NCBI GenBank assembly: GCA_002269645.1
Contig: NIVC01004208.1
Span: 1 to 55,150, forward strand
Length of the DNA: 55,150 bases
Direction of reading: 5' to 3'
Origin: Macrostomum lignano
Taxonomy: Eukaryota
Positions 19,667 through 55,150 of the stretch are shown one piece after another. Each line of letters opens with the position of its first letter. The stretch's first letter is position 1. The translations under genes and the position numbers were made by a program. The notes beneath the pieces are model-generated. The model saw only the letters and a program-made list of their open reading frames with translations. It searched no databases and had not been told where the DNA came from.

Positions 19667-19958
19667 CTGGTAGCCTTATCCAGATACTCGCTCTCATAGA
19701 CCTGTTTGATCACCTCCAAGAACTTGTCAGTGATGCCAGACTCCCAGGGCACGGCACGCTTATCCAGATTGCGCCTACTGAGTGAAACTGGGGAGCGCAG
19801 GTAGACAATCAGGTGCGGCCGGAACAGTACAGAGCTTACGTGCTTGTCATAGTACTGCAGCCAGTCTCGGGCATCGCTGGACAGAAGGCCGCACTCGGCC
19901 ATGGCTCGGGCAAAAACGTACGTGGCGAATGGACTGCGGTTCATCACAAAGCCTTGGC
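19667..19958 (-). CDS. NDUFA10: NDUFA10 exon 2
   Basis: CAG acceptor; the splice gives NTG|QGFVMNRSPF; PHLIVYL motif; phase-2 donor. Confidence 0.9.
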
Positions 19959-22527: not shown

Positions 22528-23029
22528 CTGTGTTAAACAGATGTCCACAACCTTTCCAATAGTCTAGACATCGGTACATATAGTAGTTTTGCTGGAGGTA
22601 CAATGGCTTTCCATCTTTAATAGGATCTTTATCTGTGTAGAGCATCTCAGTTGTGTAAAACTGAAGTCGTTTAGGCAACACTTTGTTGTAGTCCCTGTAG
22701 TCAAGCCCAGGTTCAAAATTTCTGTCAATAAAGAAGTTGTCATCATTTACGCCTGGGATGTACTTCAGGTACAAAACGTCGGCGAGATGGCGCGCAAAAG
22801 TTCCCTTGCCAACAGCGATATTGCCCTCGACAGTAATTGATTTACTGTTTTCATTCAAGTGGTACTGTGGGCGATCGTAGAAACTTGGTTTTGCGTGAAG
22901 CTTTTCATAGGGGTGATCCAACCAGTAGTATTGAATACCCTTGGATTTCAGTTGAAGAGCACATCGAGGCTGCGTAAAGCCCAGAGAACAAGAACGAAGG
23001 ATTCCTGGGCGAAGCAAAGCGAAAGACAT
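22528..23029 (-). CDS. NDUFA10: NADH dehydrogenase 1 alpha subcomplex subunit 10, exon 1
   Basis: Mitochondrial-type presequence and dNK-family P-loop ITVEGNIAVGKG. Phase-1 GT donor at 22527. Confidence 0.9.
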
Positions 23030-24746: not shown

Positions 24747-25053
24747 AGTAGTATAGAAAAAGACGCTTCTAGACCCAGAGCACTTTTTTAATGACCGTTT
24801 TAAGGGTCTAGAGGGGGGACACGGGGGGTAAATAAAAAAACACATCTAAACACCCTTAACACATCTAATCACCCATAATCACCCCTAACAATAAAAATCA
24901 TTCCCAACACTTCCAAACACTCCCCAACACCCCCCTCGCGTCCCCCCTCTTAAGACCTTAAAAACGGCCATTAAAATAAGGTCTGATCTGTAAGCGTCTT
25001 TTTCTATACTACTACTCTATAACCCCTTGCCCGCGCCGCAGGCGCGAAGGGTC
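24747..25053. repeat. Left TIR of the Polinton (self-complementary hairpin 24747-25016)
   Basis: AGTAGTATAGAAAAGACGCTT ... AAGCGTCTTTTTCTATACTACT, followed by CGCGCCGCAGGCGCG. Confidence 0.85.
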
Positions 25054-25070
25054 TTTTTCTGTTACTAAAA

Positions 25071-25385
25071 ATGACCCGAGTTTACACCTTTTCTGTTAGT
25101 GATACTTTTGAGACTGTTGCTAAAAATGCAGAGATAATAAAACAACATATTTTGAATGGAATAATTGATGAAGTTTATTTAAAATATGACGACAAGCATG
25201 ACCTAAAGCTTTATCCATTAGAGCTAGATGAGATGTATGATTTAGAACAAGAGGGTGAGTTAATATTTCAACTTGGAGATTATTTAAATTCGGATGATTG
25301 GGAGGTTAGATCAACAGATTCCGAATCAACAAATAGTTCATATGAAACCAGTGATTCAGAGAATGAAAGTGAAATTTTTATGTGA
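25071..25385 (+). CDS. Polinton acidic protein of unknown function (104 aa)
   Basis: TAAAAATG start context and an AT-rich open frame. Confidence 0.6.
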   Translation: MTRVYTFSVSDTFETVAKNAEIIKQHILNGIIDEVYLKYDDKHDLKLYPLELDEMYDLEQEGELIFQLGDYLNSDDWEVRSTDSESTNSSYETSDSENESEIFM

Positions 25386-25401
25386 AAAAAATATTTAAAA
25401 A

Positions 25402-25656
25402 ATGAACTATTATTCTATAACAGAAACGACGTTTATTATGAAAAATATATATAAAAAAATGAAGGTAAATCGAACCCATGGTTCGCGTGCTTTGCACGAT
25501 TACTCCTACATCGGAAATGTTCCAATTAATGAACTTAATGAAAATTTAAGTTTGATAACAGTTGAACAAATGTCAATAATAATATTAGTAACAATTATAG
25601 TAATAATATTGTTTTTGTTTGTTATAAAAAATTTACTACCATGTTGTCTTAAGTAA
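25402..25656 (+). CDS. Polinton small membrane protein (84 aa) containing an in-frame double-hairpin insert
   Basis: C-terminal hydrophobic helix IIILVTIIVIILFLFVI. Confidence 0.6.
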   Translation: MNYYSITETTFIMKNIYKKMKVNRTHGSRALHDYSYIGNVPINELNENLSLITVEQMSIIILVTIIVIILFLFVIKNLLPCCLK

Positions 25657-25666
25657 CTGTTCGAAC

Positions 25667-26821
25667 TTAGTTCGCTGATATTAGTTGGTTCTCATAAAAC
25701 GAACCCAATATTTCTTCACCGTCCTTATCAGCAATTATATAGGTTGTAGGATTGGTATTTAAAACTTTACTGATAGTAAATTTCTCACTTATCTTCCAAT
25801 ATCCTTTTCTTCCTTTTTCAAACTTATCTTTCCATTTATAGATATAAACAGAATCACCAACCTTAAAAGATTTCTTTTTATTTTTTTCAAATTTTCCAAA
25901 AGTAACTTTAACGTTTTCAGGATTGTTATAAGCTTGTTGAGGAGTCATCTTTATCGCCGAATGATATGAATTGTTATAATCTTTCACTACGTCTGGTAAT
26001 ATTTTTACCCATTTTTGGTTACCATTAAGACTAAACTGAAACCACAATTTCTTACCTAAAGTTCGATTAAATCTTTCTATTAATGCGTTTTTGCTTTCTC
26101 CATAAATAGAATAAATTTTATTAATATACTCCCCATTCGCGTCTTTTTTCCTTTCTTGTCCTTTTTCAAAATGATATAATTTATACATATGAGGATTGTA
26201 AAATTCTTTTCCTTCGTCAACACACAAACGTTCGCTTTTTTCTCCAAGACTTCTAAAAGCAGCAGCAACATCCTCTCCTTTTTTGGATTTCAAAGGAACA
26301 GCCCACGCGTATCGAGTAAAACCATCTAATATGGTTAAGATATATTTATATCCTCTTTCGTTCGGCATCGACATTAAATCAGCATACCAAATTTCATTCT
26401 TTTTGAAGTTCATGATTTTTCTATAAAATTTCGGTTTTCGATATTCTTTATGAAGAATCTTTGCCTCATCAGAACTTAACCCACCACCACTTAACAACAA
26501 ACACTCAACACAATTATTTCCATGTTGATTATAATTAATTCCCAAACCAAATTTAACTTTAGACTGCAAGATCTTTTTAACCATCCACCTAGTTAATTTT
26601 TGACCTACCGATAATCCCTGCAAGTTATCTAATCCTTGAATCATTTTTTGATCGGCTTCATGTTTTAATCTTAATGCTTCCTCGGGTGTGTTCTTATCAG
26701 CATCTCTGTATGCTAAGTCATGATAGTATGCTAACCAATCAATTCCATTTATGGGAATTGAATCGGCTTTTGGGGTGTCATCAGGATTTAATCTCAAATC
26801 TAAGCGAGTGCCGGGTAGTTT
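25667..26821 (-). CDS. PLA2 C-part fused to a retroviral-type (rve) integrase
   Basis: PGTRL...PINGIDWLAYYHDLAY (parvovirus-like PLA2), then WYADL / LDGFTRYAW / VDEGKEF / IERFNRTL (DDE) and a C-terminal FKVGD...GSFYENQL motif. Confidence 0.9.
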   Translation of the reverse strand, partial: KLPGTRLDLRLNPDDTPKADSIPINGIDWLAYYHDLAYRDADKNTPEEALRLKHEADQKMIQGLDNLQGLSVGQKLTRWMVKKILQSKVKFGLGINYNQHGNNCVECLLLSGGGLSSDEAKILHKEYRKPKFYRKIMNFKKNEIWYADLMSMPNERGYKYILTILDGFTRYAWAVPLKSKKGEDVAAAFRSLGEKSERLCVDEGKEFYNPHMYKLYHFEKGQERKKDANGEYINKIYSIYGESKNALIERFNRTLGKKLWFQFSLNGNQKWVKILPDVVKDYNNSYHSAIKMTPQQAYNNPENVKVTFGKFEKNKKKSFKVGDSVYIYKWKDKFEKGRKGYWKISEKFTISKVLNTNPTTYIIADKDGEEILGSFYENQLISAN

Positions 26822-26822
26822 A

Positions 26823-27145
26823 CCCTCAATCTTTCGAAAGAGGCTGGAGCACACCTTAAGCGGCGATAATTACCGCCCATCTCCGTCTGCTCTCTGAACC
26901 TTCTCCTTATATTTAAAATACTTAGGAGCTTGGCTGCGCATTGCCACCGTGTCTTCAAGCTTGTTACCATCGAACCATAGGTTCGCGTGCAAAGCACGAT
27001 TGGGAAGAGGAGTTACCTCTGTTCCTTCAAAAGATTTCTCAATTGAAGTGGTACTTGAAGCTGTATGATGGGTTTCACGCAATTTGGAGATGTCGCCACA
27101 AATAGTGACTAGCAAGGACATTGCCTTCCTCACTCAGGCCACGGG
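26823..27145. mobile_element. Foreign insertion in PLA2, possibly a non-autonomous piggyBac-like element
   Basis: Minus-strand boundaries TTAA|CCC...GGG|TAAA and higher GC than its neighbours. The TIR does not extend beyond CCC. Confidence 0.35.
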
Positions 27146-27148
27146 TTA

Positions 27149-27274
27149 ACCTGTGAAGTTCATTGATGGTAGGTGTAGTTCCCCTGTATATTTACCAGTA
27201 GTAAAGATTGGTGGTAAGCTTGTTAATCCTTTTTGAACATCTAACAATCCTCCTTCAAACACTATTTGGTTCAT
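27149..27274 (-). pseudogene. N-terminal part of the PLA2-integrase gene, cut off by a ~330-bp insertion
   Basis: MNQIVFEGGLLDVQKG...ELHLPSMNFTG joins PGTRL at 26815; TAAAAATG start. Confidence 0.75.
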
Positions 27275-27824
27275 TTTTAATAGCCTTAAAAATACATGAA
27301 AGCACCAATTGTTTTGCAAACTCTTCAATGGTTGGTTGTTTAACTTTTTTATAGTTATTATCTACGCTAGTTAAGTATCTTTTATTTGTCCAATGTTCAG
27401 ACTTTTTCATCTGATCTTCATCTTTGTAACTAAACGAAGAAGCGGGAATGAAATGATCAATATCTAAATTTCCAGTATAATCTTTTGAAACATAATATTT
27501 TCTTGTGAAATTTAACCAATCAAAAAAGAATTCTTTTGTGCAATCAAGATATGAGATATAGTCCTTGTCATTAAAATTTTTCAACGCCCAATTTATTCTA
27601 TTTCTAATTAAAACAATATGTTTGTAATTATCATCATTGTGATACTTGTTTTTTCTATATTCATTAAATTTATCTTTATTGTTTTTCATCCAAATAGTAG
27701 ATGAGGTATTATGACAAGATCGACAATCATTTCTAAATTTTTTTGAATCATTTCTCCAAAAATAAAATTCTTTCGTCATTGGTTTTTCTTGTTTACACTT
27801 AATACAAATCTTTTTAGGTTCCAT
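27255..27824 (-). CDS. Zn-finger + HNH endonuclease-like protein
   Basis: CxxC...CxxC N-terminus and DIDHFIP...EHWTNKRYL...DN, which resembles the HIDHIxP...HYTNLQPL...DN motif of viral HNH proteins. Confidence 0.75.
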   Translation of the reverse strand: MEPKKICIKCKQEKPMTKEFYFWRNDSKKFRNDCRSCHNTSSTIWMKNNKDKFNEYRKNKYHNDDNYKHIVLIRNRINWALKNFNDKDYISYLDCTKEFFFDWLNFTRKYYVSKDYTGNLDIDHFIPASSFSYKDEDQMKKSEHWTNKRYLTSVDNNYKKVKQPTIEEFAKQLVLSCIFKAIKNEPNSV

Positions 27825-27852
27825 TTTATAAAAAAATAAATTTAACAATTAA

Positions 27853-28524
27853 TTAAACTCCAGTATGTCCAGCAGCTTTCGCAGCAGCTAAAACAAGTTT
27901 TCGCGGTGTTTTAAATCCTTCTTTAACAGCTGGTTTGTTATTTATAGAATTAACAATCCTTTTATACAAGCTGGTATTTTTAGCAGCTCTTACTCCCAAC
28001 TCATCATAAAAAATTTTTGCACTTACTAATTCATCCCTAGTATATAATTAAGGGTTAAATTTTACCCTAGGGTTCATAACAATATTATATGCTCCGCCCA
28101 ATTCTCTATATAGTTCATTTCGATTTTTATCAACTCCACCAATTCGATAATTATTATTACCTAAATCTGTCACAGCAATACTAGCTGGTGCAGGTCTCGG
28201 ATATTCATCAACTCCACCCCTTTCTGCAGCCCTAATCTCTGCAACTCTCAATTGAGCTTGATCAACATCATAAGCTGGCGGCTCATCCAAAATTTCATCC
28301 TCTTTTGGCTCCGTATTTTTAGCAATTTTTTCCAGAAGATCTTTATCTGTTTTTTCTAGTTCACTAATTTTCCCAGTAATAGGATTAACAAAAAGAGCAG
28401 CAAATCTTTCACCCGCTAATTGTATTCCTAACTTTCTTTTTTGTAAATTTCTAACAAAATCAGAATATCTTTGCTTCTCTTTATAAATCGCTAACTCTCC
28501 ATCAACGTCCATAAATTGACTCAT
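27853..28524 (-). pseudogene. Polinton hypothetical protein with one in-frame TAA (28048-28050)
   Basis: The frame stays open for a further 64 codons after the TAA (LYTRDELV...GHTGV). Confidence 0.55.
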
Positions 28525-28558
28525 TTTTTAACATAAAAAACTTTTTTAACTTAAAAAA

Positions 28559-29088
28559 ATGGCTGAAACAAAAACTATGTGGAGTGATAAATTTCATTTC
28601 AAAAAGCACCGACAGTATATTAATGAGATCAGAGCAAGAGATTTAAATTATACCCTACCAACAAGTGATAATTCAAATAACTTTACTACTGGAACGGTAA
28701 CTTTTGACATCGGCGCAACCAACACTATATTGGATATGAAAAATGCGTTTTTCCGCGTTAGATGGTTGTATACTAGAAATGATGGAACTGCTCTTGCAGC
28801 CGGAGATATCGCAGATCGATCCGGAATAATAATAGAAAATGATTGGTTTTATAAATGTTTTTCCCAAGCTCAACTAACTGTTAATGGTGCTGAGGTTGAG
28901 ACATCATCAAACCCCGCAGAGATTAATGGAGTTTTGAAACATTTAAATTATACTTATTTATCAAAACAAGTTGGTGATAATGTTGGGTGGATGCCGGATA
29001 AAGGTAACGGTCAAGCAGTAGTTTTCCCTAATGTACAAAACGCAGCCGGTGCAGATACTGCAGCGCTAATTGTTTACCTTAATACAAA
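28559..29088 (+). pseudogene. Major capsid protein (double jelly-roll), 5' part
   Basis: Polinton MCP-like N-terminus (TFDI...LDMKNAFF...VNGAEVE), interrupted by an LTR at 29089. Confidence 0.8.
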
Positions 29089-30163
29089 TGTAGTGAGTCG
29101 CTAGTTTAGTTAGGCGCCGCACTAGTCAGCTGTTGCCCTCGCCTTCTCCCCAGGTTTCTGTCTGCCGCTGGGCAGTTGCCTGTCCCTCCCGCCTGTCCCT
29201 GGCCTGTCCTCTGCCCGTTTGTCTGTCTGTCTGTTTGTCCTCGTTTGCCCCTTTTGTCTCGCTTTCCCTTTTTGCAGTGCCCAGACAGCTTGGTCTGGCC
29301 TGCCTCTGTTTCGTTCTCTGTCAGGCATCTCCAAATTTGGAGTGCCTTCCTGTTTTCCGGTCCCACGGTCACGAGTGCCTTCACTTGTGGGCCTTTTCCC
29401 CTTGTCATGTGAGTCAGTCACATGACAAGGCCCTCTTCCTTCTTTAGTCCAAAGTGCAATGATTTCATCATTGTACGCTGGGCTCGTGTTTATGGGGAGA
29501 TCACGTGCGCCCGGACCCCCCTTGCCTCCTCTGAGGCAGGGCCCGCTTGTTTGTTGCTAAAAATAGCAACAGAGTCACTTATGACTCTCAGCGGGGGCCT
29601 TTCGTGCTATGGTGCAATCGATCCTCCCTATAAATGCAGCCCCTCTCCTGGCTTGGCTCAGACAAGCCTTTCTTTCCTTCCGTTAACCGTGCCTTCCGTT
29701 TCAGCCTTTCGTTTCTGCGTTTTCCGCGTTCCGTTTTCGTTTCTAGCGGACACTAAGTTGTGTGCCAAGTTTGCGCTTAAGTTGAACTCCAAGACTCCCG
29801 ACTTTGCGCGTGACTGCCTCTGATTGTTCCTGCTATCAATTAGCAGGCCAGCTCGGATCGCCCGAAGCTAGCACTTTCGCTCTCACCCCGCACCAGCCCG
29901 GCAGGGACTGCTGACGGTGGGCACCTCTGCGCGAGAACTGCTAAATCTGCACGAAGTGCGAGTCTCTTTCTCTCGTCTTAGTTATTTGCTTCTACGAGCT
30001 CAGCACCTCACCGAAGGCTGCGACTCTGCGAAGCTGGTGGCAGCACTACCAACGCTAGATCAACCCGGAGACTTCCCAGAGGAGCTCAAGCAACTGTACT
30101 TCACCGGGGCAGCGTTCCTATTGAAGGCCTCTAGACAACCACAGGCAAGACACCTATACTTCA
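29089..30163 (+). repeat. 5' LTR (1075 bp)
   Basis: Matches 38148..39223; by eye the only difference is C6 vs C7. TATAAA lies near 29628. Confidence 0.95.
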
Positions 30164-30164
30164 T

Positions 30165-30186
30165 TGGTGGCAGCGGTGGGATTCGA
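30165..30186 (+). promoter_or_regulatory. Primer-binding site complementary to the tRNA-Leu 3' end
   Basis: TGGTGGCAGCGGTGGGATTCGA is the reverse complement of the tRNA-Leu end ...TCGAATCCCACCGCTGCCA-CCA. Confidence 0.9.
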
Positions 30187-30300
30187 CGAGTCAACGACAC
30201 GACTATCTGGGATTCGACGAGTCAACGACACGACTATCTGGGATTCGACGAGTCAACGACACGACTATCTGGGATCCGACAAGTCAAGATTCGACTACTA
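30178..30300 (+). repeat. 31-bp tandem repeat in the Gypsy leader (3 perfect + 1 diverged copy)
   Basis: GGGATTCGACGAGTCAACGACACGACTATCT at 30178, 30209 and 30240; diverged copy at 30271. Confidence 0.9.
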
Positions 30301-30357
30301 CTACACCCAAGACAACCGCTCTTTCGAGTAAGAATTCGGCTATTCTACTAATTTGAA

Positions 30358-31527
30358 ATGTTTAACGAGAGAGAAGAGAGCCGGTGCAGCAGCCGGCTGG
30401 ATCAGCACATCAGCAGTTCGAGACCTGCAGCAGCATCGGCTGCCGCAGCAGCAGCGGTCAACGACCTTGGTCAGCAGATGCCGCGGCGAAGTGCGAGAAG
30501 CGAAGTGTCCGAAGACCCGCCAGACGAGCTTCTGCCAGGTTTGGACGACCTCGGCCAGAACATCAGGCCCCAGGATGTGAGAACGATGATGGCAGCTCTG
30601 CAGCAGCAGATGGAGCGGCCGGTAAGCAAATCTGTTAAGATTGTAAAGTACACGCCCAGCCAGGACATCCACGTCTGGCTCGCCGCGTTCGAGCAGCGCT
30701 GCGAGATGGAGCGTATCGAAGACCCGATCGAGATGAAGCAGCACCTCGTTGCGAGTCTAGATCTGGCAACCGCTTACCCGGCTCTGCTCAGTATGCACCT
30801 CCCACGCTATGCTGGCTACGAGGAGGTCAGGCAGCGACTGATCGAGAGATTCGCCCGCCACGGTGGCGCGGATGAATATCGAGAGCTGCTGAGGCGCCGT
30901 CAGCAAGGCAAGAATGAGTCAGCAGAAGAGTACGCTGATGCCCTGCGCACCTTGGGAGAGCGAGCGTACCCTCGAATGCACCCTGAGGATCGAGAGCGGG
31001 AGCTGGCTGATCAGTTCCTAGCTGGCATCAGGACGACACCAGATCTGCGCGAGCGGCTCTATTGGGTCCGCCCGAACAATCTGCTGGCCGCTATTCGAGA
31101 ACTCCATCGTCTGGAAGGCGCCAAGGAACTGGCGCAGCGCTCTGCTCAACCCCCGGTTCGCATGCTGAACGGGGAGCGCGACGGTGACCCGACGCCCGAC
31201 GCCACCGCTCAAGCTCTCCTAGCTCTGACTGATCTGCTAGAGAAACAGCAGCGACTGCTAGACAACCTGGTGCAGCGTGACCAGCAGCAGAAGACGAGTC
31301 CGCCTTCGAAAGCCATGATCTGCTATGGCTGTGGTCAGCCTGGTCACCGCAATGCACAGTGCCCGTTACGCCAGAACCAGGGAAACGGCGAGACGGAGAG
31401 CGCCCACGGCAACGCCCTCCGCAGAGCCCAAGCCCCGGCTACTTGGCAGACTCCGAACGCTCACCAGAAGAAGAGGATGTCGGCTGCGCAGGCGCCAATG
31501 CCCAGTCCGACAGTCGCTCATCAGTAA
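30358..31527 (+). CDS. gag: Gypsy Gag
   Basis: Capsid-like region (WLAAFE..., FLAGI) and zinc knuckle CYGCGQPGHRNAQC. Confidence 0.9.
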   Translation: MFNEREESRCSSRLDQHISSSRPAAASAAAAAAVNDLGQQMPRRSARSEVSEDPPDELLPGLDDLGQNIRPQDVRTMMAALQQQMERPVSKSVKIVKYTPSQDIHVWLAAFEQRCEMERIEDPIEMKQHLVASLDLATAYPALLSMHLPRYAGYEEVRQRLIERFARHGGADEYRELLRRRQQGKNESAEEYADALRTLGERAYPRMHPEDRERELADQFLAGIRTTPDLRERLYWVRPNNLLAAIRELHRLEGAKELAQRSAQPPVRMLNGERDGDPTPDATAQALLALTDLLEKQQRLLDNLVQRDQQQKTSPPSKAMICYGCGQPGHRNAQCPLRQNQGNGETESAHGNALRRAQAPATWQTPNAHQKKRMSAAQAPMPSPTVAHQ

Positions 31528-34500
31528 GTGAGGCTGAGCGGAGGTTTCGTGGACACCTCCGATGATCAAAAAATCCATGCGCGTGAGGCTGATCCGTACG
31601 TCACCGGCCGATTGGCGGGCCGAGAAGTCCCTTTCCTACTAGACAGCGGCAGTCGGAAAAACTTTCTTGGAGCGTCGACCTGGGCCAATGTTAGACGTCG
31701 GATGCCTCGTTGTATCATATCGCATGCTATCCCGGATTGCGTGACCATGTACGACGGTACGCAGCTACCCCTTGCGTGTAAGGTGATCATCCCGGTGGAG
31801 TTCGGTGATGTCGTCGCGGACACCGAATTCCTGGTCACGGTCACCGATTGTGAAAATTTGCTTGGTATTAATTTCATGCGTGAACACTGCCAGAACTTGG
31901 ACTTTGCTCAAGGAATGTTAAAGTTCAACAATGGCGCGTGCATTCCCGTTCGCTATTCGCGCCGTGAGCTTCAATCATGCCGGGTGTACACCTCCGAGAA
32001 GTGCACTCTGCCGCCGAGAAGTTCAGCGCTGTTGGCCGTCCAGTTGGATGTCGGCCACCCCGAGAACCGAGGATCGCCATCAATCGTCGAGCTGGTGAAG
32101 TCGAGACTGCACCCCAGCTGCAACACTCTGGAAGCAGCTCCAGCTCTGATGACTATGCCTGAAGGTCGAGGCTACATCGAGGTCGTCAACACTGCTGACT
32201 GTGAGGTGTTCCTGCAGTCGGGCATCCGCGTTGGGTTGCGACACCACTTAGAACTGCCGACCTGATGTACCTGGAAGAGACGCCGGAACCTGAAGTGCGA
32301 CATTTGCCAAGGAGCCCTGAAGAGTCCAGCACAGCTTGGCTAGAGGAAGTCGAGATCAACAGCGAGCTGTCCGAAGATCAACGACAGAGAGTGCGAGATC
32401 TACTAGTTGAGTGTCAAGCAGCCTTCTCGAAGCATCTGCTAGACGCTGGCCTGACACACTTGGTGACCCACGAGATCATCCTGAAGGATCGGACACCAGT
32501 TGCGCTACCACCGCGCAGGATCCCGCCTCATCTGAAGGACAAGCTAGACGCCCTGCTAGACGAGATGCTGGCGAAGCACATCATTCGCCCGGCTTATTCT
32601 AGCTACAACTCGCCAATGCTGATAGTGCCCAAGAAGGACGGAACATCAGGCTGGTGCATGACTTCAGAGCTCTCAACGACAAGTGTGTGTACCACCCGTA
32701 CCCGCTGCCGCACATTCAGGAGACCTTCGCGAAGCTGCGTGGTGCCCAGTGGTACTCTAGCTTGGATCTCGCTCAAGGATTCTGGCAGATCCCGCTGCGC
32801 GACTGCGATCAGCACCTGACGGCGTTCTCTGTGATTGACCGCGGACAATTCTGTTTCAATGTTCTACCGATGGGTCTCCACGATAGTCCAGGCAGCTTTC
32901 AGCGTTGCATCAATAAGCTCCTGGACGGCCTGACGCCAAAGACTGCGCTTGGCTACATGGATGACATCGTGGTGCACTCTGTGACCTTCGAGGAGCAGCT
33001 GGACAACCTGCGGACTGTACTCCAGCGGATTATCGCAGCCAACCTCAAGGTCAAGCCGAAGAAGTGCCATTTGTTCCTCAAGGAGCTGCATTATCTAGGC
33101 CACGTCGTGACTCCCGACGGCCTGAAGACCTGTGAGGACAAGATTGCGCAGATCCGTGATTGGCCCGTGCCACAGTCCGTTACTCAACTGAGACAATTCC
33201 TAGGCCTCGCCAATTACTACCACAAGTTTGTCAACGGCTACGCTGGATTTGCTGCGCCGCTACATGCCCTGACTCGAAAGGACATCGGCAGCCTGCGGCA
33301 GCATTGGACTGATGAGCACCAGGTAGCGTTCGACACGTTGAAGAAGAAGTTGTGTTCGACTGAAGTTCTCGCTCTGCCTGAGTTTAACTCAGATCCTAAT
33401 GTGAAGTTTGTCCTAGACACGGATGCCTCAGACATTCGCATAGGCGCTTGTCTTGGACAACGGCAATCCGACGGCGTCGAGCGCCCAATTGCATTCTTTA
33501 GCCGGAAGCTTCGTGATCCTGAGAAGCGCTACACGGTCACGAAGAAAGAGCTGCTTGCAATCGTGGACGCGATGCGACATTTCCGTCATTATTTAATCGG
33601 CAAGAAGTTTGAAGTTCGTTCTGACCATCGGGCCTTGCTGTGGCTGCTGAACCAGACGCAGGTCACAGGCATCTTGGGCCGTTGGATTGAGCGATTAAGC
33701 GAGTTCCGCTTCCAGCTTCACCATCGCAAAGGCAAGGACCACGCCAACGCTGACGCCCTGTCAAGACGCCCGGAGACACCACCGGTTGACTTCGAACATG
33801 GCCGACTGCTGGAGCACCCCGGTTCTGCAGCCCGACCCGGTGATGACACCAGCCTGGAGCCGGAATTGGACACCACACGTGAGGCCACTGCGAGAGCAGC
33901 CCGCACGAAGAAGGTCCACACTCGCAACAAGGAGGCCGAAACTGCCCTGGCCGAAGACCTGGAGGCCACTGCGCCAGCAGTCCTTCAGCACGACGACCAT
34001 CGCTGCAGTCAACGCCTGGAGACCGGTTTGGACACCAACCCGGAGGCCACTGACACCTCAGCCCTCCGCAGCGACGCCCACGCCGACTGCCGTTACTTGG
34101 AGATTCGCCCGGACAAAACCCTCGGAGGCCACTGCTGACGTAGACCTCCTTGATGATGTCCAAGACTGCGGGTCTCGGAATCTGGAGACGCCCATGGACC
34201 ACGACTCAGAGGCCACTGAACAAGCAGCCCTTCTGATGACAGCCCACAACGCGAATCCAGACCAGCAATGTAAGTTCAACTCCCCGGAGTTTTGCGCTGA
34301 GAGTTCTCGCCGTGTTGACAGAGGCCAGACTCTCGCGACGGCTGCAAGGTCAACGCTCTGTCCCCCGAGCCGACAGACAGCTGCTCATCGCCTGTGCGGA
34401 AAGTCGAGTCCCCCTTTGCGACACCGCCCAGTGCTGGAGAAGACTCACCCAATGACGACGATGATCGAGCCGACGGCTACGGCTGCCTGCGACGAGGCGT

Positions 34501-46102: not shown

Positions 46103-46435
46103 ATGGAGAGCTGGTTCAAAACCGATTCTAATGTGATTAATTATCTCACACCCAATATGTTGGAGAATAAAGAATATAATATTATATGTTTGAGACAGGT
46201 TAAATTTATTGGGCTTCAATCAATATTTTTACAATTAGATGGGCAAAAAATTTTATGTCTAAGCGGAGATGATGTTAAAAATTTTCCTGTTTTAGTTATT
46301 AATAAACCTAAAGCGTTTGTTATGAAATACTGCAACGAGGGTGGATTGCAATTTAAACTAAAACAAACAAATAATAAAAAGAGTGATAGGACTGTAAAAT
46401 TGGCGGCTGTTTGGGAGGATGACGACGAAGACTAA
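46103..46435 (+). CDS. Polinton hypothetical protein (110 aa)
   Basis: TAAAAATG start and an acidic C-terminus. Confidence 0.5.
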   Translation: MESWFKTDSNVINYLTPNMLENKEYNIICLRQVKFIGLQSIFLQLDGQKILCLSGDDVKNFPVLVINKPKAFVMKYCNEGGLQFKLKQTNNKKSDRTVKLAAVWEDDDED

Positions 46436-46813
46436 ATTTTTTATAAGAAAATGGATACGATAAAAATCCTTATCACTAAAGAGCGTGAACTTAATGATAT
46501 TAATAAAAAAATAAATATAATTATATCTCAGAAATATCATGAGTATGGGGACGATATGTTTCCCATCCGATATGAATAGATAAAAGAAAACGTTTTTTAA
46601 ACAAGATATTGTTTATGCTGAAATAGTAATTGAAATTGAAATAGATAGATTGGTTAGAAAAATAAAAAAACTTAGGAAAAAAATAAAGGATTGTTTAAGT
46701 TACCCTGACGACTGCGAGGAAAATTGGCCTTCAATATTATATGAAATCGAAATGGATATTATGCTTAAACAATTACATGCTTTAGTTTTTTTCCGCCCGA
46801 AGGGTCGCGGATT

Positions 46814-49800
46814 TTATCCGATAAGTAATTTTTCTGTTAATCTCTTCCAGTTATTCAAGACTTTTTCCTTATTTAATTTTTTAAGTTCTTTTGGAAATGT
46901 TGAATAATAATTATCTATATCTTTTTCATATTCTAGAAATGTATTATATTCACAATCACATTCGGATTCACAATCACAATCGTAATAATAATTATTTATT
47001 GCCGCTTTGTATTCATTATATTTACTTATTATATCTTCTTTTTGTTTTTTATCTTTTATCATATTTTTTATCTCTTCTTTTAAACCATATGGATATGTTT
47101 TAATTTTATCATCTAAATATCTTTTATCATCAAATGGACTTAATGTTTTTTTATCTGTCTCGATGACAAACATCTGATGCTTATCTGAATTTAATCGATA
47201 TTGTGGAGCATGATAATTTTCAATTGTATTAAGGTAATCTAAAAGTACGTTTTTATAATCATCAAATGTTATCTTTTTTACTGCTGCTCTTGATACCCCT
47301 TTTATTTTTTTTACCTCTCCCTCCTGTCCTAAAACCTTAAATGCATAGCATTTTGATCTTATTGCTATAAACTCGGTTATGATTTTGCTATTTAATTCAT
47401 CTTTCATTTTAAGTACAACTTTTTTATTTTGATCTGATTTTAAAGGATGGTTATCCGGATAGTCGGAGGTATCCAATGTATCCTTAATTTTTTCCATATC
47501 TTTATAGACATCGAACCTTTGGTTCGCGGACTCCGTCCGATCTGTTTCAACCTTAAATACCAAACTGTCGGTGTCTGCATATATTGGATAGTTATCTGGC
47601 CATGTTTTATTTATAACATCATAATAGTATTCATACATTACCAGCTTTGCATAATCTAAAACAACCATTCCAATAAATATTGGTTTAAGAAATTTTGTTG
47701 TTTTATTTCTCATATGAATACCCATAAAGTTATCATCAAATTTTATAAAGTCTTTAAAGTTAGGTTTTGAGAAATATTTCTTTGCTTTATCAATATCCTT
47801 TTCTAAATGGAATTGGGTTCTATCTCTAATATTTTCAACCGTTTTTCCATAAAAAGCATTATTCATTAATTTCCAATAATCTTTCTCAAAATTTGTTTTT
47901 GACATCTGTCTCTGATTTGAATTAAAGTCAATATATTTAGCTAACCAATCTTCCTCAATAAACGATATTGTTCGATGTACTTTAGACACTTTTAATCCCT
48001 GTTTTTCATAAAATTGTAGAAGCTTATAATGCACTACATAGTTTTTCTTATCATGTAAATTTAATATTAATTTTTTTGTTGCTAGATGTTTTGCATTATC
48101 TGCTTTAAGATAATCTTTTTGTGTTTGTGATAAATCATCTTCATTAACTGAACAATGCTCTGGAGCTAAAGGATATTTATATGTTTTTGCTTTTGCTTCC
48201 CGAGTATATTGCAAATCCACTTCTACGATACAGCCCCTTCCTTCGGGAATATTTTTGTAATAATCGGGGTCATCTTCCCATTGGAAATCAGCTATTGGTA
48301 ATTTTTGTTTCATACAACCACCGTATAAATTGTTTGCATCTAGATATAATACATATGATGATTTTTCTTTTTTATTATAATTTGGAAGATACTTATTATT
48401 TACTTTAGTATATCTATCTCCTAGTACACCCGAGAATCCGCCGCGAATTCCTCTCTCAATCATTAACAACATATCATGATCAGTTAGTAAATCAATCTTA
48501 ACATCTGTATGTTTCAAACCACAAGCCCATGTTAATCCCGGTGCACTGAAACAATATGCGGGATCAATTTTAAAATTCTCATATGTATGATTCCTAAAGT
48601 TTTCAAATGCATCAGCTAATAGGAGAACATCTGCTTTAAGATATAGATTATGATAATCTTTAAATGTTTTACAATTAAAGTATTTCCATACTTTTTGAGC
48701 GTGTTCATAATCCGATTCACTTATGTTTGTTTGTGATAATGTTGAATAAAACTTTTCAATTGGGGGTAATTCGGTATGAAAAATACCTCTTCAGATGTTA
48801 CATATTCATATGGGTAGATGCCCTTACGAGTTAATAGCATTAGTTCTTCCTCGGATAGTTTTTCTTTTTGAAACGATTCAATAAGATTGGAAAGTTTTTC
48901 TTTACTATTTCTAAATCCCATGGTTTTGGAACTAATGATGAAACAACATTTGCTAAAGATGTTGATAAGAATCTCAAGGAATCTAGAAAAACTAGATGGG
49001 AGTATTTCTTACCATATGTTATTGATATGTAATTTTCTGATGTTTTAGGTAATATATTTATTTCATATTCATCCTTTCCTAAATGAAGCAATTCTCGAAC
49101 TAAGAAATGAAAATCATATCCGGAACCATTATGAAAAAATACTGGTATTTCCTTACATCCTTTTCCTTCTTTTGCATTACATGATCTACATGCTGCCCCT
49201 CGATAATTTCCTGTTAGATGACAATGTTCTCGTATCTTATTATTCTTACTTAAATGTCTTTTGCACATAAAACAATTTGTTGCATTTTTATAATTGTCTC
49301 TATCCTTATTTGTCATATTAATATTTTTTGATAATTTATCATATTGATTTTGAATATATTCAAATACATTTACTAATGATTCTGCCATGTGCTTAGCTGC
49401 ATCATTACCGTGGTAAGTAATCATCCTTGATTTAAATATATGATCAGCTACAGAGTGTACATATATACAATAACTATTCGGAAACTGTTGTGCCAATTTT
49501 TTTGTGCATTCGTCGCGTGCTCAGATATCATCAGATGCCGTCTGTGATTCTTTTAAGGGAACATTTGTTGCTTCAAAATCAGCATATATTACTATTGGTT
49601 TTTTAACTGCCATATAATGTTGTTGGAACTTTAGGGTTGCATCTTCAGATGCTGGCATTATAGCATTAGTAAATTTGTGATCTAAACAAAATCGTTGGTG
49701 GTTTTTAAGAGCTGTTTCATCCTTTTTAAATGTAAAACAATTTCTACATAGTGGATATCTATTTCTATTTTCTCTTAAAAAAGAACTAATATCTTTTATG

Positions 49801-50774
49801 TATATATAATGTGTTTCATTTTCGCGCTGCATGTACAAAAGATCGATTTGATCTGGTGCTGTTATATCAGTTGCTGGCTTAACAAGATAACACCTTTTCT
49901 TATACCATTCTGGATCGGTTAAAATTTCTTCTAGATCTTTTGGTTCTTCAATTGTAAACACATTAATATTTAAACCATTCATTTTTTCAATCTTATATAT
50001 ATCATCTATTGCTACTGGGTATGATATGTTTTTCATTATTATTTCATCCTCATATTGTCTATAATTATATATTTTATTAATGTGTGATTCTACTTGATTG
50101 TGATATTTATGAATTAATAAACACCATAATAAACATTTATTATCTTTATTGTCTGGATTTATAATCATAGGTGATTTAAATTTGAGCTTCATATGTGATC
50201 GTCCTTTAAGAATTTCTATAGGTGCAATCTTTACTATTGCTGAATTACAGGATACAAATATAAACCCAGATCCGTTTTCTGTCATCTTATCTATCCATTC
50301 ATCAAACTCAGCTTCTATTTGATCGAATTGATTGTTGTAATTTCCCATTGATAATAATGTTTTATATGATTCTTGTGAAAAGTTATTTATTACTTCAATT
50401 TCTGAATTTGCATTAAGAATATTTGGTTTTTTAAATTCTGTTTCAACTTCTATTTTATACTTAATTGGCTGTCGTTTGTTATTTGGCCTTATAGTATAAT
50501 TGTTTAATATGGTCTTTAATTTATCTTTCATTTGTTTAAAATATTCTTTATAATTTGTATTTATATCTATATCTATATATATTACTTCAGCTCCATTTTG
50601 TCCTTGTGGTTGGGGGTTATTAATATCATTTAATTGTCTTTCTAAACGTATCTCATTTTCTGCCCTAATTCTTGCTTCTATTTCAGCCCTATCGGCAATT
50701 CGTTGTGCTTCGATTTGAGCTATTAATTGCGCTCTAAGTTCAGGGTTGTCGATTTGAGCTAAAATTGCTTCCAT
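46814..50774 (-). CDS. polB: Protein-primed family B DNA polymerase with terminal-protein region and EndoVII-like Zn insert; one in-frame TGA and two frameshifts
   Basis: IYADFE, CFMC...REHCHLTGNYRGAACRSCN, FFHNGSGYDFH, RKGIYPYEY, LYLDANNLYG, KLMNNAFYGK, YADTDS. TGA at 49521-49523; shifts near 48885 and 48778. Confidence 0.93.
47512..47539. other. 28-bp double-hairpin element (representative copy; others at 25471, 26971, 40561, 41014, 41849, 41901, 46793, 52417)
   Basis: AT|CGAACC-TTT-GGTTCG CGGAC-TCC-GTCCG|AT. Confidence 0.85.
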
Positions 50775-50856
50775 TTTATAGAATAAAATTTATATAATGT
50801 TTGAATTATTGATTTTTTAATTTTGTGTTTTTGGTGTCCAGACCCCCCCCAGGAGC

Positions 50857-51846
50857 CTATTCGAGATCTGCTTTTGGTAATAGCAATCCATTGCCCATAA
50901 CGTTTGAATTTAAGAAAATTCCTGAACCTGCTTTTGGTCGCATTTCGAGATATAATCCGCTTCCGTCGTGTTTTTCAATGATATTAAAATCTTTTCCTAA
51001 TTTATTAAAAATTTTCTGAACAGCTGGTCTAAAATTGGATCCAATATTGTCAAAAAATCCTTTAGCTTTCTCACCCGTTTTTTCTAAAGTTTGACCAAAT
51101 TCATGTAGTTTATCTGCTACAACTCCACTTCCTTGGGTTGTTCCTTTTAGTACCAAACCATTCCCGTGATTTGTTCCTTGCAAGAGTAAACCTTTTCCGG
51201 CTGCTAACCTAGCTTCTGCATTTCTTTTTTGCTCTGCTGTTGCTGAACTACTATTAATGTATCAATAAGTTTCTGTTTGAATTGTGCGTCCTGTGTTATT
51301 TGCTGTCTTTGAAATTCGGCCTCTCTTTTAGCTTTTTCGTCCGCAGCTTTTTTGTCATTTACTGCTTTTGCAATTCCAGCTGCTCCGCCAGCAACTCCTC
51401 CAGCTGCTCCAATTCCTGCAAAAATTATTGGGAGCAAAGCTGCAAGGGGTAAGATTCCCCCCTGTTTCGCTCTTAACTCTCCTAGCTGTTTTACATTATC
51501 ATGAATTCTTTTTCCGGCTAAACCGACTGCTCCAGCTGCCCAAGTCCTAAAAGAAGCGGTAGAATGGGTAGTAATCCGCCGTCCTTTTTAGTGTGAGTCT
51601 CCATTAAAAATTTCACATCGGAGTCTGTCAACCTATAATTTCTGCCGCGATTCTTAAAGGATATTGGCCTTCCTTCTTGTGCATATTTTGCTGCGAGTTT
51701 AAATGTATCGATGTCGTAGTCAAACTTTTTACCTAATCGATCCAATCTTTTTAACATTGTGTGGCTATGTTTATTATCATCAAGATTTAAGTATCTACAA
51801 TTTCTCCTATAAAATATAACCGGTTTTCATCATTAACTGAGTCCAT
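50857..51846 (-). CDS. Core protein with two adenovirus pX-like motifs and GxG repeats (about three frameshifts)
   Basis: KDGGLLPILPLLLGLG and KQGGILPLAALLPIIFAGIGAAGGVAGGAAGIAKAVNDKK; ORF pieces 51518..51757, 51204..51437 and 50857..51183 join by 1-nt shifts. Confidence 0.65.
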
Positions 51847-51856
51847 TTTTATATTG

Positions 51857-52255
51857 TTAAAATTTCTTTAATCCTTTTCCACCTTTAATAGTATTTAACA
51901 TTTTATTAAAATCCTGAATATCTTTATTACTTATTGGTGCGCTTTTCGTGGGGGTTTCTGTTGGTTGTGCGGCTTGTGCCAGCTTTAAATCTTTTATTGC
52001 ATTTATTTGTGAGAGGGTGTCGTTAAAATCTCTCAATTTCTTTAGTTCTTCTGCCGCTCTAGCTGCTTCAATTCCTCCTTTTACAGCATTTGTTATAGAG
52101 CCTGCTGCAGAGCCAGCTTGCCCTATAAGCCCCATATTGTCTTTAACAAAATTTGCTGCTGTTCCAACCAAATCAAAAAGTCCCTCACCTCGGTATTCAA
52201 TTGGATCTCCTACCTGATACTCATTTATATTTTGCACATGTGTAACGTGTGTCAT
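51857..52255 (-). CDS. Amphipathic-helix core/membrane-active protein (adintovirus cupiennin/pVI-like)
   Basis: RGEGLFDLVGTAANFVK amphipathic helix after a GxG motif; C-terminal KGGKGLKKF. Confidence 0.6.
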   Translation of the reverse strand: MTHVTHVQNINEYQVGDPIEYRGEGLFDLVGTAANFVKDNMGLIGQAGSAAGSITNAVKGGIEAARAAEELKKLRDFNDTLSQINAIKDLKLAQAAQPTETPTKSAPISNKDIQDFNKMLNTIKGGKGLKKF

Positions 52256-52544
52256 TTTTTGTTCTATTTTTAGTAACAGAAAAATTAAGTTGCAGACACT
52301 AAAGAAAAGGGTAGTGTGCAAGCATCTCGAGCGGTTTTATTTTATAGCTCTTTTTTTACTCTTTTTTGTATAGAAAATAAAGAAGACGCAAACACAAAAG
52401 ATTCTCTATCCAAAAATGAACCTATGGTTCGCGGGCTGTGCCCAGTGGCACCATGGCCTGCTCCGTTGGAGCAAAAAGAAGCTTTTATTTCAATGTGTTT
52501 TTTGGAAATCCAGAATTTTTTCTGGACATTTGTCAACAATTCAT

Positions 52545-53019
52545 TCATTCATTGATGCTGGACGCCCCCATTTCACTTGTGGCAGCGGAAATTGTGTCTT
52601 CATCGAAAAGCATTGTGTCATCATCCTCTCCTTCGAAATCGTAGGTGATTTGGCGCTCAATGAGGCAACGGAAATTCTCATCTTCAGTCGCCAGCTTCTC
52701 GATTGGCTTTTTGAACGTCAACAGGGTTTCAAAAGAATACCCAGAAATTACCAGTGCGGGGTATGCGCTAATAAGCGCCGAAAAAGTAAATAGGCGCTGA
52801 GTGAACTTGACGTCAATCGCCAGTTTTTGCGAAATGGCATCGATTCTCAGACCTAGCTTTTCACGCATGGTGACAACAACCTCCGCTTGTTTCTTGCGGG
52901 CAAAACACCCCAAGACATCCAGGTTCGAGATGAAGCTTTCCAGGTGATTAAATTGATTAATCAATTGTGCTTCAATGGCGCCAACTTCGGTGGTACACAC
53001 TTCCTTAGCGTTGTCGAAC
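52545..53019 (-). CDS. Spliced Polinton accessory gene, exon 2
   Basis: Acceptor TTTCATTTTAG|G; removing the 72-nt intron gives a 254-aa ORF. Confidence 0.75.
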
Positions 53020-53091
53020 CTAAAATGAAATTAACTAAGTTGTTGAAATTGTTTTTCATTGGGAGATAATATTCGAAAAAATTTAACTTAC

Positions 53092-53381
53092 CGAGTTTTG
53101 ATGGTATATCTCTCGTTTTCAACTTGTCTCATTTTTTCAATGAGACGACCAATAAACCGACTTTCTCGCTGGCTTTTGTCCGTGGCCTCTTTCTTCTTCT
53201 CCTTCTTCTCTCGCTCTTCGGTCTCAGATTCAATCTTCACTAGCTGCTTTAGCAGCAAGTCCTGCTCCGCTGGAGGCATGCGGCTAATTGCAACTGCTGA
53301 GCTAGCTTGATCTTTGGCGCTAATACTTTTAATGGAGGCTACAATCTTACTTGGGCGCTTTCTATCGCTGGAAGATGCCAT
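53092..53381 (-). CDS. Spliced Polinton accessory gene, exon 1
   Basis: TAAAAATG start; donor CG|GTAAGT at 53091. Confidence 0.75.
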
Positions 53382-53754
53382 TTTTAGCTAATGTTTAATG
53401 GATGCTAAATATTTTTTTATTTTCTAAGAGGTGAGCAAGAGCGGGGTTGATGGTTGTGGTTTTTATAGAGTTGAAGTAGAGTGGGCGTTCAATTCCTGCT
53501 GCAGCAAGATTTTGCAAGATGGCAGAAACAGCAAATTACTTCTTATACTGTAGATGGCTGTGAGACAGTCTGCTTTTATTGAAAAACACGTCTCAACAAG
53601 TAGCATTTTCTGCACCTCCCTGCGCGTGAGTCAGTTTGTGCCAGTTGTGTTGCTGCCTTTCGCTGTGATAAAATGAACAATAGTGGCTATGAGAGTAATT
53701 TTTTTGTTGAGTGCTTCTATACCATGACTCAGTTTAAACTCTTGTGCCCAAGCC

Positions 53755-54103
53755 CCTGACCCTACGCGCCTGCGGCGCGGCCTGGGGTTATAAAGTAGTA
53801 GTAGGTAAAAAGACGCTTCTAGATCAGACCTATTGAAAATGATGATTTGAAGGGCTATTAATGGGGGGACGCGAGGGGATTGTTTGGTTGTGATAGGGTG
53901 TGTTATTGGGAATATGGGTGAATATTGTGTGATTTGTGTGAGTTGGTGGTGTTAATGGGAGGTAGTGGGAGGTAGTGTGTTTAAGGGGGGTAAAGGGTAT
54001 TTAGATGTGTTTTTTTAGTACCCCTCGTGTCCCCCCACTAGCCCTTCAAATCAGCATGTTAAATAGGGGTTCTGGGTCTAGAAGCGTCTTTTTACCTACT
54101 ACT
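53755..54103. repeat. Right TIR of the Polinton (self-complementary hairpin 53794-54103)
   Basis: Its reverse complement aligns with the left TIR, including CGCGCCGCAGGCGCG, but is diverged. Confidence 0.85.
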
Positions 54104-54490: not shown

Positions 54491-55150
54491 TAGAAAATTT
54501 TAGAAGGCAGGTTTTCCCGAAAAAATACACTACGGAGATAGGAAGTTTTCATTTTTTCAGCACAAAAATTGTTTTTGCTTTTGATAGGAGGCAGTTCCAG
54601 TGTTCATCTTTTGATATGTTGTGCCTTTCTTATTGCTTTATCGATATTAATGAAGCTATTCGTACAGAAAATTAGGATTCTATGTTAATTTTTTATTCTG
54701 CGTACATTACCTGAACAAAATAATAATAATGCATTGCACAGCTCCAAATCATTGGTTTTATCTCGTATAGCTTCGCCACTCGTGAAAAATTTATCATTGT
54801 CTACCTCCAAAACCATATACACAAACACATTGTCTCATGAATGTATTTTTAGAAGCCTAAAATAATGATTCCTAAGCGTGGAATAATGAGCGTACAGCAT
54901 GACACAATGGTATTTAGGCACAAGACATCGGAAATGTACGTAGAATAAGAAATTAACATAGAATCCTAATTTTCTGAACGAAAAGCTCTATGAATATCGA
55001 TAGAGCAATGAAAAAGGCACAACATATCAAAAGATGAACACTGGAACTGCCTCCTATCAAAAGCAATAACAATTTTTGTGCTGAAAAAATGAAAACTTCC
55101 TATCTCCGTAGTATATTTTTTCGGGAAAACCTGCCTTCTAAAATTTTCTA
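54491..55150. repeat. Long inverted repeat (arms ~54491-54660 and ~54980-55150), probably TIRs of a foldback/MITE element
   Basis: TAGAAAATTTTAGAAGGCAGG... is mirrored at the window end and may extend beyond it. Confidence 0.8.

What the first reader, a model, noticed from the sequence alone, without database searches (positions are those of the whole stretch)
47510..47541. Double hairpins insert in-frame (28 bp + AT duplication = 10 codons) into PolB, the ATPase and other ORFs
Seen: in PolB the copy reads KVETD[RTESANQRFD]VYKDM just after the YADTDS motif. Deleting 30 nt gives KVETDVYKDM, the compact spacing I expect in this family. The same pattern occurs in the ATPase, NITD[RPVGSRTPSD]RAP (40561); in ORF25402, KVN[RTHGSRALHD]YS; in ORF41892, MGN[RTTCSRAKHD]NN; and in ORF26870, LPN[RALHANLWFD]GN. 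In all of these, and at the ATPase stop, the AT occupies codon positions 2-3, so the insert is R-x8-D. Inference: the 2-bp AT duplication plus a length that preserves frame points to real transposition of a tiny element that core viral genes tolerate, analogous to Rickettsia palindromic elements. Part of the phase bias may simply reflect abundant NAT codons.
Basis: partly seen in the sequence, partly recalled or inferred. Interest (0 to 1): 0.85.

Follow-up and report, generated by a model that had tools for sequence, protein, structure and literature searches.

The report
Tiny hairpin insert parasitising a Polinton
A 30-base piece of DNA that folds into two small hairpins has inserted itself again and again into one family of virus-like elements (Polintons) in this animal genome, including inside their polymerase and packaging genes, where it adds ten amino acids to surface loops; it behaves like the hairpin repeats of fungal mitochondria but inside an animal DNA virus.

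Summary
Real and mobile. The window holds a decayed Polinton (24747-54103) with nine or more 28-nt double hairpins (6-bp arm + 5-bp arm, 3-nt loops), mostly between two ATs. Sister copies in the same genome give exact 30-nt filled/empty pairs, including at the PolB site. Arms vary but stay paired (249 of 275 free cells, shuffle maximum 149). A skeleton pattern has 288 genome hits against 0 in the control; 83 of 85 fetched hit loci are Polinton DNA. Inserts sit in loops of PolB and the ATPase. Corrections: this PolB copy is 9, not 10, residues longer than empty alleles; the 'codon position 2-3' rule fails (all three phases occur); flanks are not always AT. Units pile up in mixed tandems and swap arms. 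Most likely mechanism (inferred, 0.5): folded single-stranded units are copied into AT sites by microhomology during strand-displacement replication of the virus, with no transposase of their own. Closest known: yeast GC clusters and fungal mitochondrial double-hairpin elements, closer than Rickettsia RPEs. Nine literature searches showed no such element in Polintons.

The parts
47510..47541 (.). Double-hairpin unit in PolB (unit 47512-47539 between two ATs); the finding
   Evidence: filled/empty alleles; loop position
40559..40590 (.). Unit in the packaging ATPase (one stem mismatch), residues about 114-123
   Evidence: (30 of 30 sisters filled)
25469..25500 (.). Unit in small ORF 25402-25656
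   Evidence: 14 filled, 17 empty of 31
26969..27000 (.). Unit in ORF 26870-27133 upstream of the integrase; two different second arms among sisters
   Evidence: 20 filled, 11 empty of 31
41012..41043 (.). Unit at the ATPase 3' end, reversed orientation; supplies the stop codon; arrays of 1-3 units in sisters
41849..41876 (.). Unit at the minor-capsid stop, flanks not AT in this copy
41899..41930 (.). Unit in ORF 41892-42107, inside an AAT run
46793..46822 (.). Unit overlapping the PolB stop; absent or decayed in most sisters
52417..52444 (.). Decayed unit in the variable right-hand region
   Evidence: (D19)
25659..25690 (.). Old, decayed unit at the integrase 3' end, present in all 31 sisters
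49511..49525 (.). Remnant of a unit in PolB, at one of this copy's breaks; full units and empty alleles in sisters
24747..54103 (.). Host Polinton (Maverick/adintovirus-type) with terminal inverted repeats
   Evidence: (I9)
46814..50789 (-). Protein-primed PolB, in three pieces in this copy; carries an endonuclease VII domain (48840-49520)
   Evidence: phi29 polymerase is the best fold match, E 1e-13
40222..41022 (+). A32-type packaging ATPase
27255..27824 (-). Free-standing HNH / endonuclease VII-like nuclease; candidate trans factor
   Evidence: PHROG endonuclease VII E 1e-6; Atlas neighbours HNH, lead only
46103..46435 (+). Small ORF with acidic tail; possible phi29-type single-strand binding protein (lead only)
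   Evidence: score 0.90, family on 44% of that cluster; no Pfam hit
25667..26869 (-). Retroviral-type integrase; three unit sites in one linker region in sisters

Best explanation
The unit is a selfish 30-nt insertion (28-nt double hairpin plus a repeated dinucleotide) confined to one Polinton lineage. SHOWN: it is gained at many sites with a 2-nt repeat, piles up in tandems of unlike units, is lost precisely or imprecisely, is conserved as a structure rather than a sequence, and survives in spacers, gene ends and protein loops because 30 nt keeps the frame in any phase. INFERRED: it moves while the element replicates outside the chromosome. Strand-displacement synthesis by the phi29-like polymerase exposes single strands on which the unit folds; a nascent end at an AT (better GAT/ATC) site anneals to the identical junction of a folded unit, copies it and returns, repeating the dinucleotide. 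Slippage across the hairpins gives loss, and slippage between the central CGCG junctions of a tandem gives arm-swapped units. No dedicated transposase is needed. Confidence that it is a selfish mobile insertion: about 0.9; in this particular copying mechanism: about 0.5.
For: Exact 30-nt filled/empty pairs in 95-99% identical copies. Confinement: 83 of 85 fetched hit loci match the Polinton, the two misses lack a second hairpin, in a 764-Mb genome. Structure over sequence: 249 of 275 free cells paired in 55 distinct units, shuffle mean 124, maximum 149; 98 of 110 loops are GNA/ANA on one strand, the loop type I recall as unusually stable in DNA. Targets resemble the unit's own junction: G before the dinucleotide at 12 of 30 sites, C after at 14, both at 7, against 18%, 18%, 2.7% (0 of 20000 draws). 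One-sided AT at 6 of 31 sites, with empties showing the other dinucleotide at 46703 and 49510, fits copying of the donor's flank. 16 distinct tandem pairs, none of identical units; 3 have their collapse product as a solo unit at the same site. PolB folds like phi29 polymerase; possible SSB next to it. No Y1 transposase in the genome search.
Against: No gain was observed directly; integrated copies are a selection-filtered record. The GAT/ATC bias could come from Asp codons in loops, from remnants of older units, or from a nuclease preferring GATC. AC repeated on both sides where the empty allele has AC (44980, 49510) fits a 2-nt staggered cut as well. Empties at 26971 have TT or GT in 11 of 11 while filled copies have AT twice, which neither model explains simply. 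A second Polinton family in the same genome, also with a PolB, showed no unit in 16.5 kb or at the PolB site, so the polymerase type alone is not sufficient. The related units share ancestry, so the pairing shuffle overstates significance.
Confidence: 0.5

Rival explanations
1. Nuclease-assisted spread: the element's HNH/endonuclease VII activity (free ORF 27255-27824 or the domain in PolB) nicks or cuts AT/GATC sites or hairpin junctions, and repair copies a unit in, as proposed for yeast GC clusters and intron endonucleases; filled alleles also spread at the same site by gene conversion.
For: Two candidate nucleases; AC-AC repeats; diversity within 5 nt of sites 0.068 against 0.018 background, 4 of 20000 random AT sets as high, like the co-conversion tracts described for GC42 (PMC4478555, passages); empties often lack AT.
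Against: No target consensus beyond about 4 nt; the endonuclease VII domain is common in PolB homologues that lack inserts; the nuclease slot is swapped for an Eco47II-like gene in some unit-bearing loci; flank diversity may come from imprecise loss and alignment noise; the same flank haplotype occurs both filled and empty (L636 and L293).
Confidence: 0.27
2. True transposition of an excised 30-nt single-stranded circle by an HUH enzyme (REP/RAYT or IS200-like), or capture by the Polinton integrase.
For: Fixed unit length, hairpins as recognition marks and mixed tandems resemble REP arrays (PMC3733652, passages); HUH enzymes read hairpins (PMC10288648, passages).
Against: No Y1 transposase match in the genome and no HUH family among the element's ORFs; no conserved tag sequence; odd flanks occur on either side of the unit, not on one fixed side; a 2-nt repeat is shorter than the 6-bp duplication I recall for Polinton integrases. 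Helitron-type enzymes were not searched.
Confidence: 0.1
3. The hairpins are functional cis signals of the virus (transcript 3' ends, recombination or packaging marks) kept by selection.
For: 14 of 31 sites lie near an ORF end; the ATPase unit is in 30 of 30 copies; stems are compensated.
Against: Most sites are polymorphic or rare; many are mid-gene in either orientation; the second family and 40 outside relatives have none; the apparent link to module breakpoints vanished under control (3 of 8, p 0.12).
Confidence: 0.08
4. RNA-mediated copying by a host or Gypsy reverse transcriptase, as suggested for some mitochondrial hairpins.
For: Suggested for GC42 and Allomyces elements (passages); a Gypsy element sits in this copy.
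Against: Would not confine units to Polinton DNA; no poly(A) tails or variable-length duplications; DNA-type triloops; no Rfam match.
Confidence: 0.05

Closest known systems
Yeast mitochondrial GC clusters (GC42; PMC4478555, passages read)
   Same: Short GC-rich palindromic unit in AT-rich DNA, 2-nt target repeat, presence/absence among close relatives, stems conserved more than loops, merger and shuffling of subunits, variable bases right beside the unit, no transposase of its own.
   Different: 30 not 42 nt; AT rather than AG; in a linear virus-like element of an animal nucleus, not mtDNA; often in frame inside core genes (GC42 is mostly intergenic); arms change by paired substitutions.
Fungal mitochondrial double-hairpin elements (Allomyces, Schizosaccharomyces; seen through PMC10085805 and PMC2800124 passages; Paquin 2000 not read)
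   Same: Two adjacent GC-rich hairpins, scattered, potentially mobile, mechanism unknown.
   Different: Allomyces elements are reported to lack flanking duplications and the fission-yeast ones lie in spacers and rRNA genes; these have a 2-nt repeat, a fixed 3n length and coding insertions. Sequence kinship not tested.
Rickettsia palindromic elements (PMC10969869, passages)
   Same: Palindromic DNA inserted in frame in unrelated genes, adding peptides to proteins.
   Different: About 150 bp with a conserved peptide; here 30 bp read in any phase and either orientation, giving unrelated peptides; viral rather than bacterial.
REP / REPIN with RAYT (PMC3733652, passages)
   Same: 20-40 bp hairpins, dimers and arrays, some intragenic.
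   Different: No GTAG/CGTC tag and no Y1 transposase found.
T-shaped parvovirus terminal 'ears' (recalled, not from a call)
   Same: Two short GC-rich arms capped by 3-nt loops.
   Different: Internal, dispersed and mobile here; no parvoviral NS1 match, though that search had no positive control. A resemblance only.

Membership tests
Mitochondrial GC clusters / DHEs | Short GC-rich unit folding into adjacent hairpins | tested here: met
Mitochondrial GC clusters / DHEs | Presence/absence at homologous sites in close relatives | tested here: met
Mitochondrial GC clusters (GC42) | 2-nt target duplication | tested here: met
   AT or AC repeated where the empty allele has it once; 6 of 31 sites one-sided
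Mitochondrial GC clusters (GC42) | Merger and shuffling of subunits | tested here: met
   16 mixed tandem pairs, 3 collapse products at the same site
Mitochondrial GC clusters / DHEs | Located in mitochondrial DNA | tested here: not met
   All checked units are in Polinton DNA on nuclear contigs
Mitochondrial GC clusters / DHEs | Sequence homology to described elements | not tested
   No collection of mitochondrial elements in the tools; primary papers not read
Rickettsia palindromic elements | In-frame insertion in unrelated genes at tolerant sites | tested here: met
Rickettsia palindromic elements | About 150 bp with a conserved encoded peptide | tested here: not met
   30 nt; three phases and two orientations give different peptides
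REP/REPIN-RAYT | GTAG or CGTC tag next to the stem | tested here: not met
   Flanks and arms of 55 distinct units
REP/REPIN-RAYT | Associated Y1 (HUH) transposase | tested here: not met
   No PF01797 match in the genome, control rang in 6 of 14; assembly may be incomplete
MITE of a cut-and-paste DDE transposon | Terminal inverted repeats shared with an autonomous element, genome-wide insertion | tested here: not met
   Ends share only 2-4 nt of symmetry; 83 of 85 hit loci are Polinton DNA
Polinton/Maverick (host element) | pPolB, retroviral-type integrase, packaging ATPase, terminal inverted repeats | tested here: met
   capsid and protease labels are my reading and come from no family hit
Any of the above | Enzyme or process that makes new insertions | not testable with these tools
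   Needs biochemistry or reads from replicating element

The most novel reading that the evidence does not exclude
A 30-nt, structure-only parasite of a eukaryotic DNA virus that encodes nothing and needs no transposase: it is copied by the virus's own strand-displacing polymerase through 2-4 nt microhomology, recombines its two arms, and is kept at a multiple of three by the gene-dense genome it lives in. If so it is among the smallest mobile elements, and may expose the general mechanism behind GC clusters, DHEs and RPE-like inserts.
Probability: 0.4. Interest if true: 0.87.

Novelty: new variant of a known kind. Interest (0 to 1): 0.72.

Why it matters
How enzyme-less hairpin repeats (mitochondrial GC clusters and DHEs, Rickettsia elements) move is still open; the GC42 paper itself leaves it undecided. 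Here the same behaviour is confined to a roughly 19-kb element with only a few candidate enzymes, and one genome holds dozens of near-identical copies with filled, empty, tandem, chimeric and decayed alleles, so the rival mechanisms can be told apart. It also shows repeated ten-residue additions to loops of a viral polymerase, ATPase, integrase and protease (four different inserts in one ATPase loop), a natural map of tolerant loops and a source of new stop codons at gene ends.

Tried and rejected
Phase rule: rejected (268 of 300 unit x orientation x phase readings are stop-free, so no phase is forced). Long-read artefact: rejected; short-read contigs of three other studies bridge the PolB site with the 3-nt-longer allele, one with the alternative second arm (the fourth run did not bridge). 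Units as module-exchange hot spots: 13 of 23 breakpoints near units, but in loci not fetched through the hairpin only 3 of 8 (p 0.12), while 6 of 8 lie at ORF ends: rejected. 'Immune' empty alleles at PolB (Pro/Leu codon before the site): weakened by a filled copy on the same haplotype. Longer target consensus: none convincing beyond G-AT-C. The closest homologues (55-65%) had no DNA available, so the host range is open. Rfam: none. Parvoviral NS1: no match, no working control. Expression: no RNA holder listed. Allele frequencies cannot be taken, which rank by likeness to a filled or an empty query. The last block (diversity inside units) crashed and gave nothing. No earlier notes on this genome or sequence.

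Full report
SETTING. The window is one 55-kb contig of a 764-Mb animal assembly. From 24747 to 54103 it holds a Polinton with terminal inverted repeats, an rve integrase, an A32 ATPase, a PolB with an endonuclease VII domain and an adenovirus mu-like protein. This copy is decayed: a Gypsy retroelement with its two LTRs (about 29089-38875) interrupts what I read as the major capsid gene, and PolB lies in three pieces. At least 40 sister copies of 90-100% identity exist (each search scored only 40 candidates).

THE OBSERVATION. 47510-47541 is AT, a 6-bp hairpin, an abutting 5-bp hairpin (both with 3-nt loops) and AT, in frame in PolB after DTDS. Five perfect CG-ended units and several imperfect ones lie in the element; three composition-matched controls gave none. 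Either strand folds into the two hairpins. A skeleton that fixes only the CG ends, the loop-closing C-G pairs and the ATs has 288 matches in the genome and 0 for its reversed control; a one-arm pattern has 205 against 2.

IT IS AN INSERTION. Of 120 PolB homologues, 67 could be measured by motif and 62 have 21 residues where the window has 30 (one homologue, P0011, has its own longer loop there). Sixteen PolB sites were fetched from copies ranked by likeness to a homologue: 9 were same-family and empty (6 with one AT, 3 with AC), 2 carried another unit, 1 was unreadable, 4 were a 64%-identical family without an insert. One filled copy differs from an empty one by exactly the unit plus a repeated AT. 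The window copy lacks the codon before the site, so it is +9 residues; 14 of 24 filled sisters are +10 and 2 carry a 60-nt tandem. Short-read contigs from three other studies show the longer allele, and one shows the alternative second arm. In the ATPase all 30 sisters are filled, but the closest homologue has a 10-column gap there, and more divergent copies carry three other inserts at other positions of the same loop. At 25471, 17 of 31 copies are empty; at 26971, 11 of 31. Sites empty in the window are filled in some sisters: 25955 (1 of 32), 27268 (7 of 30), 27856 (2 of 31), 44980 (3 of 33), 46703 (3 of 42), 49912 (2 full units of 38) and two protease sites. About 30 independent sites were collected.

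TOLERANCE. In the PolB model (mean pLDDT 88.5) the insert is coil between strand 409-415 and helix 428-438, pLDDT 70-80 against about 95 on both sides. In the ATPase model it is coil with pLDDT under 50 at 120-122. Several sisters carry the PolB unit within a long uninterrupted frame (read together). This shows compatibility with the fold, not activity; complementation between copies is possible.

Phase: among 14 coding sites 6 start at codon position 1, 6 at 2 and 2 at 3; background AT phases are 26/51/24%; 268 of 300 unit readings are stop-free. What matters is the length of 30; off-length variants gather at gene ends and spacers, though some 1-2 nt shortfalls in PolB may be assembly errors. 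Flanks: AT-AT at 23 of 31 site clusters, AC-AC at 2, one-sided AT at 6. AC is repeated where the empty allele has AC (44980, 49510), a true duplication; at 46703 and a second 49510 allele the target dinucleotide stays on one side and AT appears on the other.

STRUCTURE, NOT SEQUENCE. Chosen by skeleton alone, 179 hits gave 55 distinct units, with 30 long arms and 26 short arms; 249 of 275 free stem cells pair (shuffle mean 124, maximum 149 of 2000), and 98 of 110 loops read GNA or ANA on one strand. The units are related, so these are not independent events. That such loops closed by C-G are especially stable in DNA is recalled, not tested; the folding program does not separate DNA from RNA here (31 and 32 of 55 exact folds). 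A C-T/A-G mismatch at one long-arm pair is common and unexplained.

LIFE CYCLE. Sixteen distinct adjacent pairs were seen, none of identical units, so tandems arise by new arrivals at the regenerated AT, not by duplication; for 3 of 16 the first long arm joined to the second short arm occurs as a solo unit at the same site, as collapse through the central CGCG predicts. Half-units and scars show imprecise loss. Diversity within 5 nt of sites is 0.068 against 0.018, partly alignment noise. Targets match the unit's own junction: G before at 12 of 30, C after at 14, both at 7, against 18%, 18% and 2.7%; Asp codons and old remnants may contribute.

CONFINEMENT. Of 85 loci fetched around pattern hits (from the first 100 listed of 205 and of 288; some places twice), 83 match the Polinton; four of these match only over 110 nt beside a different nuclease gene; the two misses came from the one-arm pattern and have no second hairpin. 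The remaining hits were not examined. The divergent Polinton family showed no unit in 16.5 kb, nor did 40 outside relatives. IMG/VR and GTDB scans found no fully paired unit (two scans were capped).

MECHANISM. Confinement to a small share of the genome argues against an enzyme acting on host chromatin and for movement during replication of the element. PolB matches phi29 polymerase best, and a neighbouring ORF is a lead for a phi29-type SSB, so long single strands are expected (established for this polymerase class; recalled). Structure-only conservation, junction-like targets and one-sided ATs favour microhomology-guided template switching (0.5). An HNH/endonuclease VII-assisted route stays open (0.27), fitting AC-AC repeats and variable flanks. 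An HUH route lacks an enzyme. None of these steps was observed.

COMPARISON. It works most like yeast GC42: 2-nt duplication, stems over loops, merger and shuffling, variable adjacent bases, mechanism undecided (PMC4478555, passages). Fungal DHEs share the shape but are reported without duplications and outside protein genes (PMC2800124 and PMC10085805, passages; the original Allomyces paper was not read). RPEs share in-frame insertion but are about 150 bp with a conserved peptide (PMC10969869, passages). REPs need a tag and, for GTAG families, a RAYT (PMC3733652, passages). It is a member of none. Nine full-text searches (listings only, apart from the six papers read in passages, PMC10288648 included) showed no report of such units in Polintons or adintoviruses; subscription papers, Repbase entries and supplements were not seen and could hold one. 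Unchecked notes of this scan describe 30-42-nt double hairpins in bacteria and archaea and a longer one in giant viruses; my capped GTDB scan found no shared skeleton, so these look like parallel cases and are not support.

VERDICT. A real, recently active, structure-defined 30-nt selfish element of one animal Polinton lineage; a new variant of a known kind; mechanism inferred. Interest 0.72.

Noticed in passing
window 27255-27824; L347-L350 (G000 C954, C255, C1205): The slot beside the integrase holds an HNH/endonuclease VII-like gene here but an Eco47II-like restriction nuclease fragment (Pfam E 6e-4, below cut-off) in other loci, where it sits with a hairpin unit in a repeat of about 1.6 kb.
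   Followed up: partly
window 29089-38875: A Gypsy-type LTR retroelement (RT, RNase H, integrase, identical LTRs) is nested in the presumed major capsid gene.
   Followed up: no
window 40150-40215: A different family of hairpins at the capsid 3' end, with 33-nt modules in changing order among sisters; not the 6+5 layout.
   Followed up: no
window 26590-26760 (integrase ORF, N-terminal part): Weak match to the parvovirus-type phospholipase A2 domain (PF08398, E 0.013, below cut-off).
   Followed up: no
window 46103-46435: Small ORF next to PolB resembles phi29-type single-strand binding proteins (lead).
   Followed up: partly
window 52285-53750; L263-L290: Variable right-hand slot: most sisters diverge from the window at about 52285 and carry other short ORFs.
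   Followed up: partly
window 42617-43072: 57-nt tandem repeats in the fibre-like gene vary in number among sisters.
   Followed up: no
P0024, P0036, P0061: PolB homologues of 1500-1700 aa with intein and LAGLIDADG Pfam marks: other parasites of the same polymerase.
   Followed up: no
L088, L110, L356: Copies whose integrase is only about 57-66% identical to the window's still share the 26971 unit and its flanks: mosaic elements.
   Followed up: partly
L362, L363 (G000 C2071, C176): A second Polinton family (PolB region 64% identical, different gene order) without units.
   Followed up: partly
window 54491-55150: 221-nt inverted repeats, 94% complementary, 218 nt apart at the contig end: MITE-like.
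   Followed up: no
window 19636-19944 and 22517-23029: Host exon-like ORFs, the second with a deoxynucleoside-kinase-fold match; NDUFA10-like by my recall.
   Followed up: no
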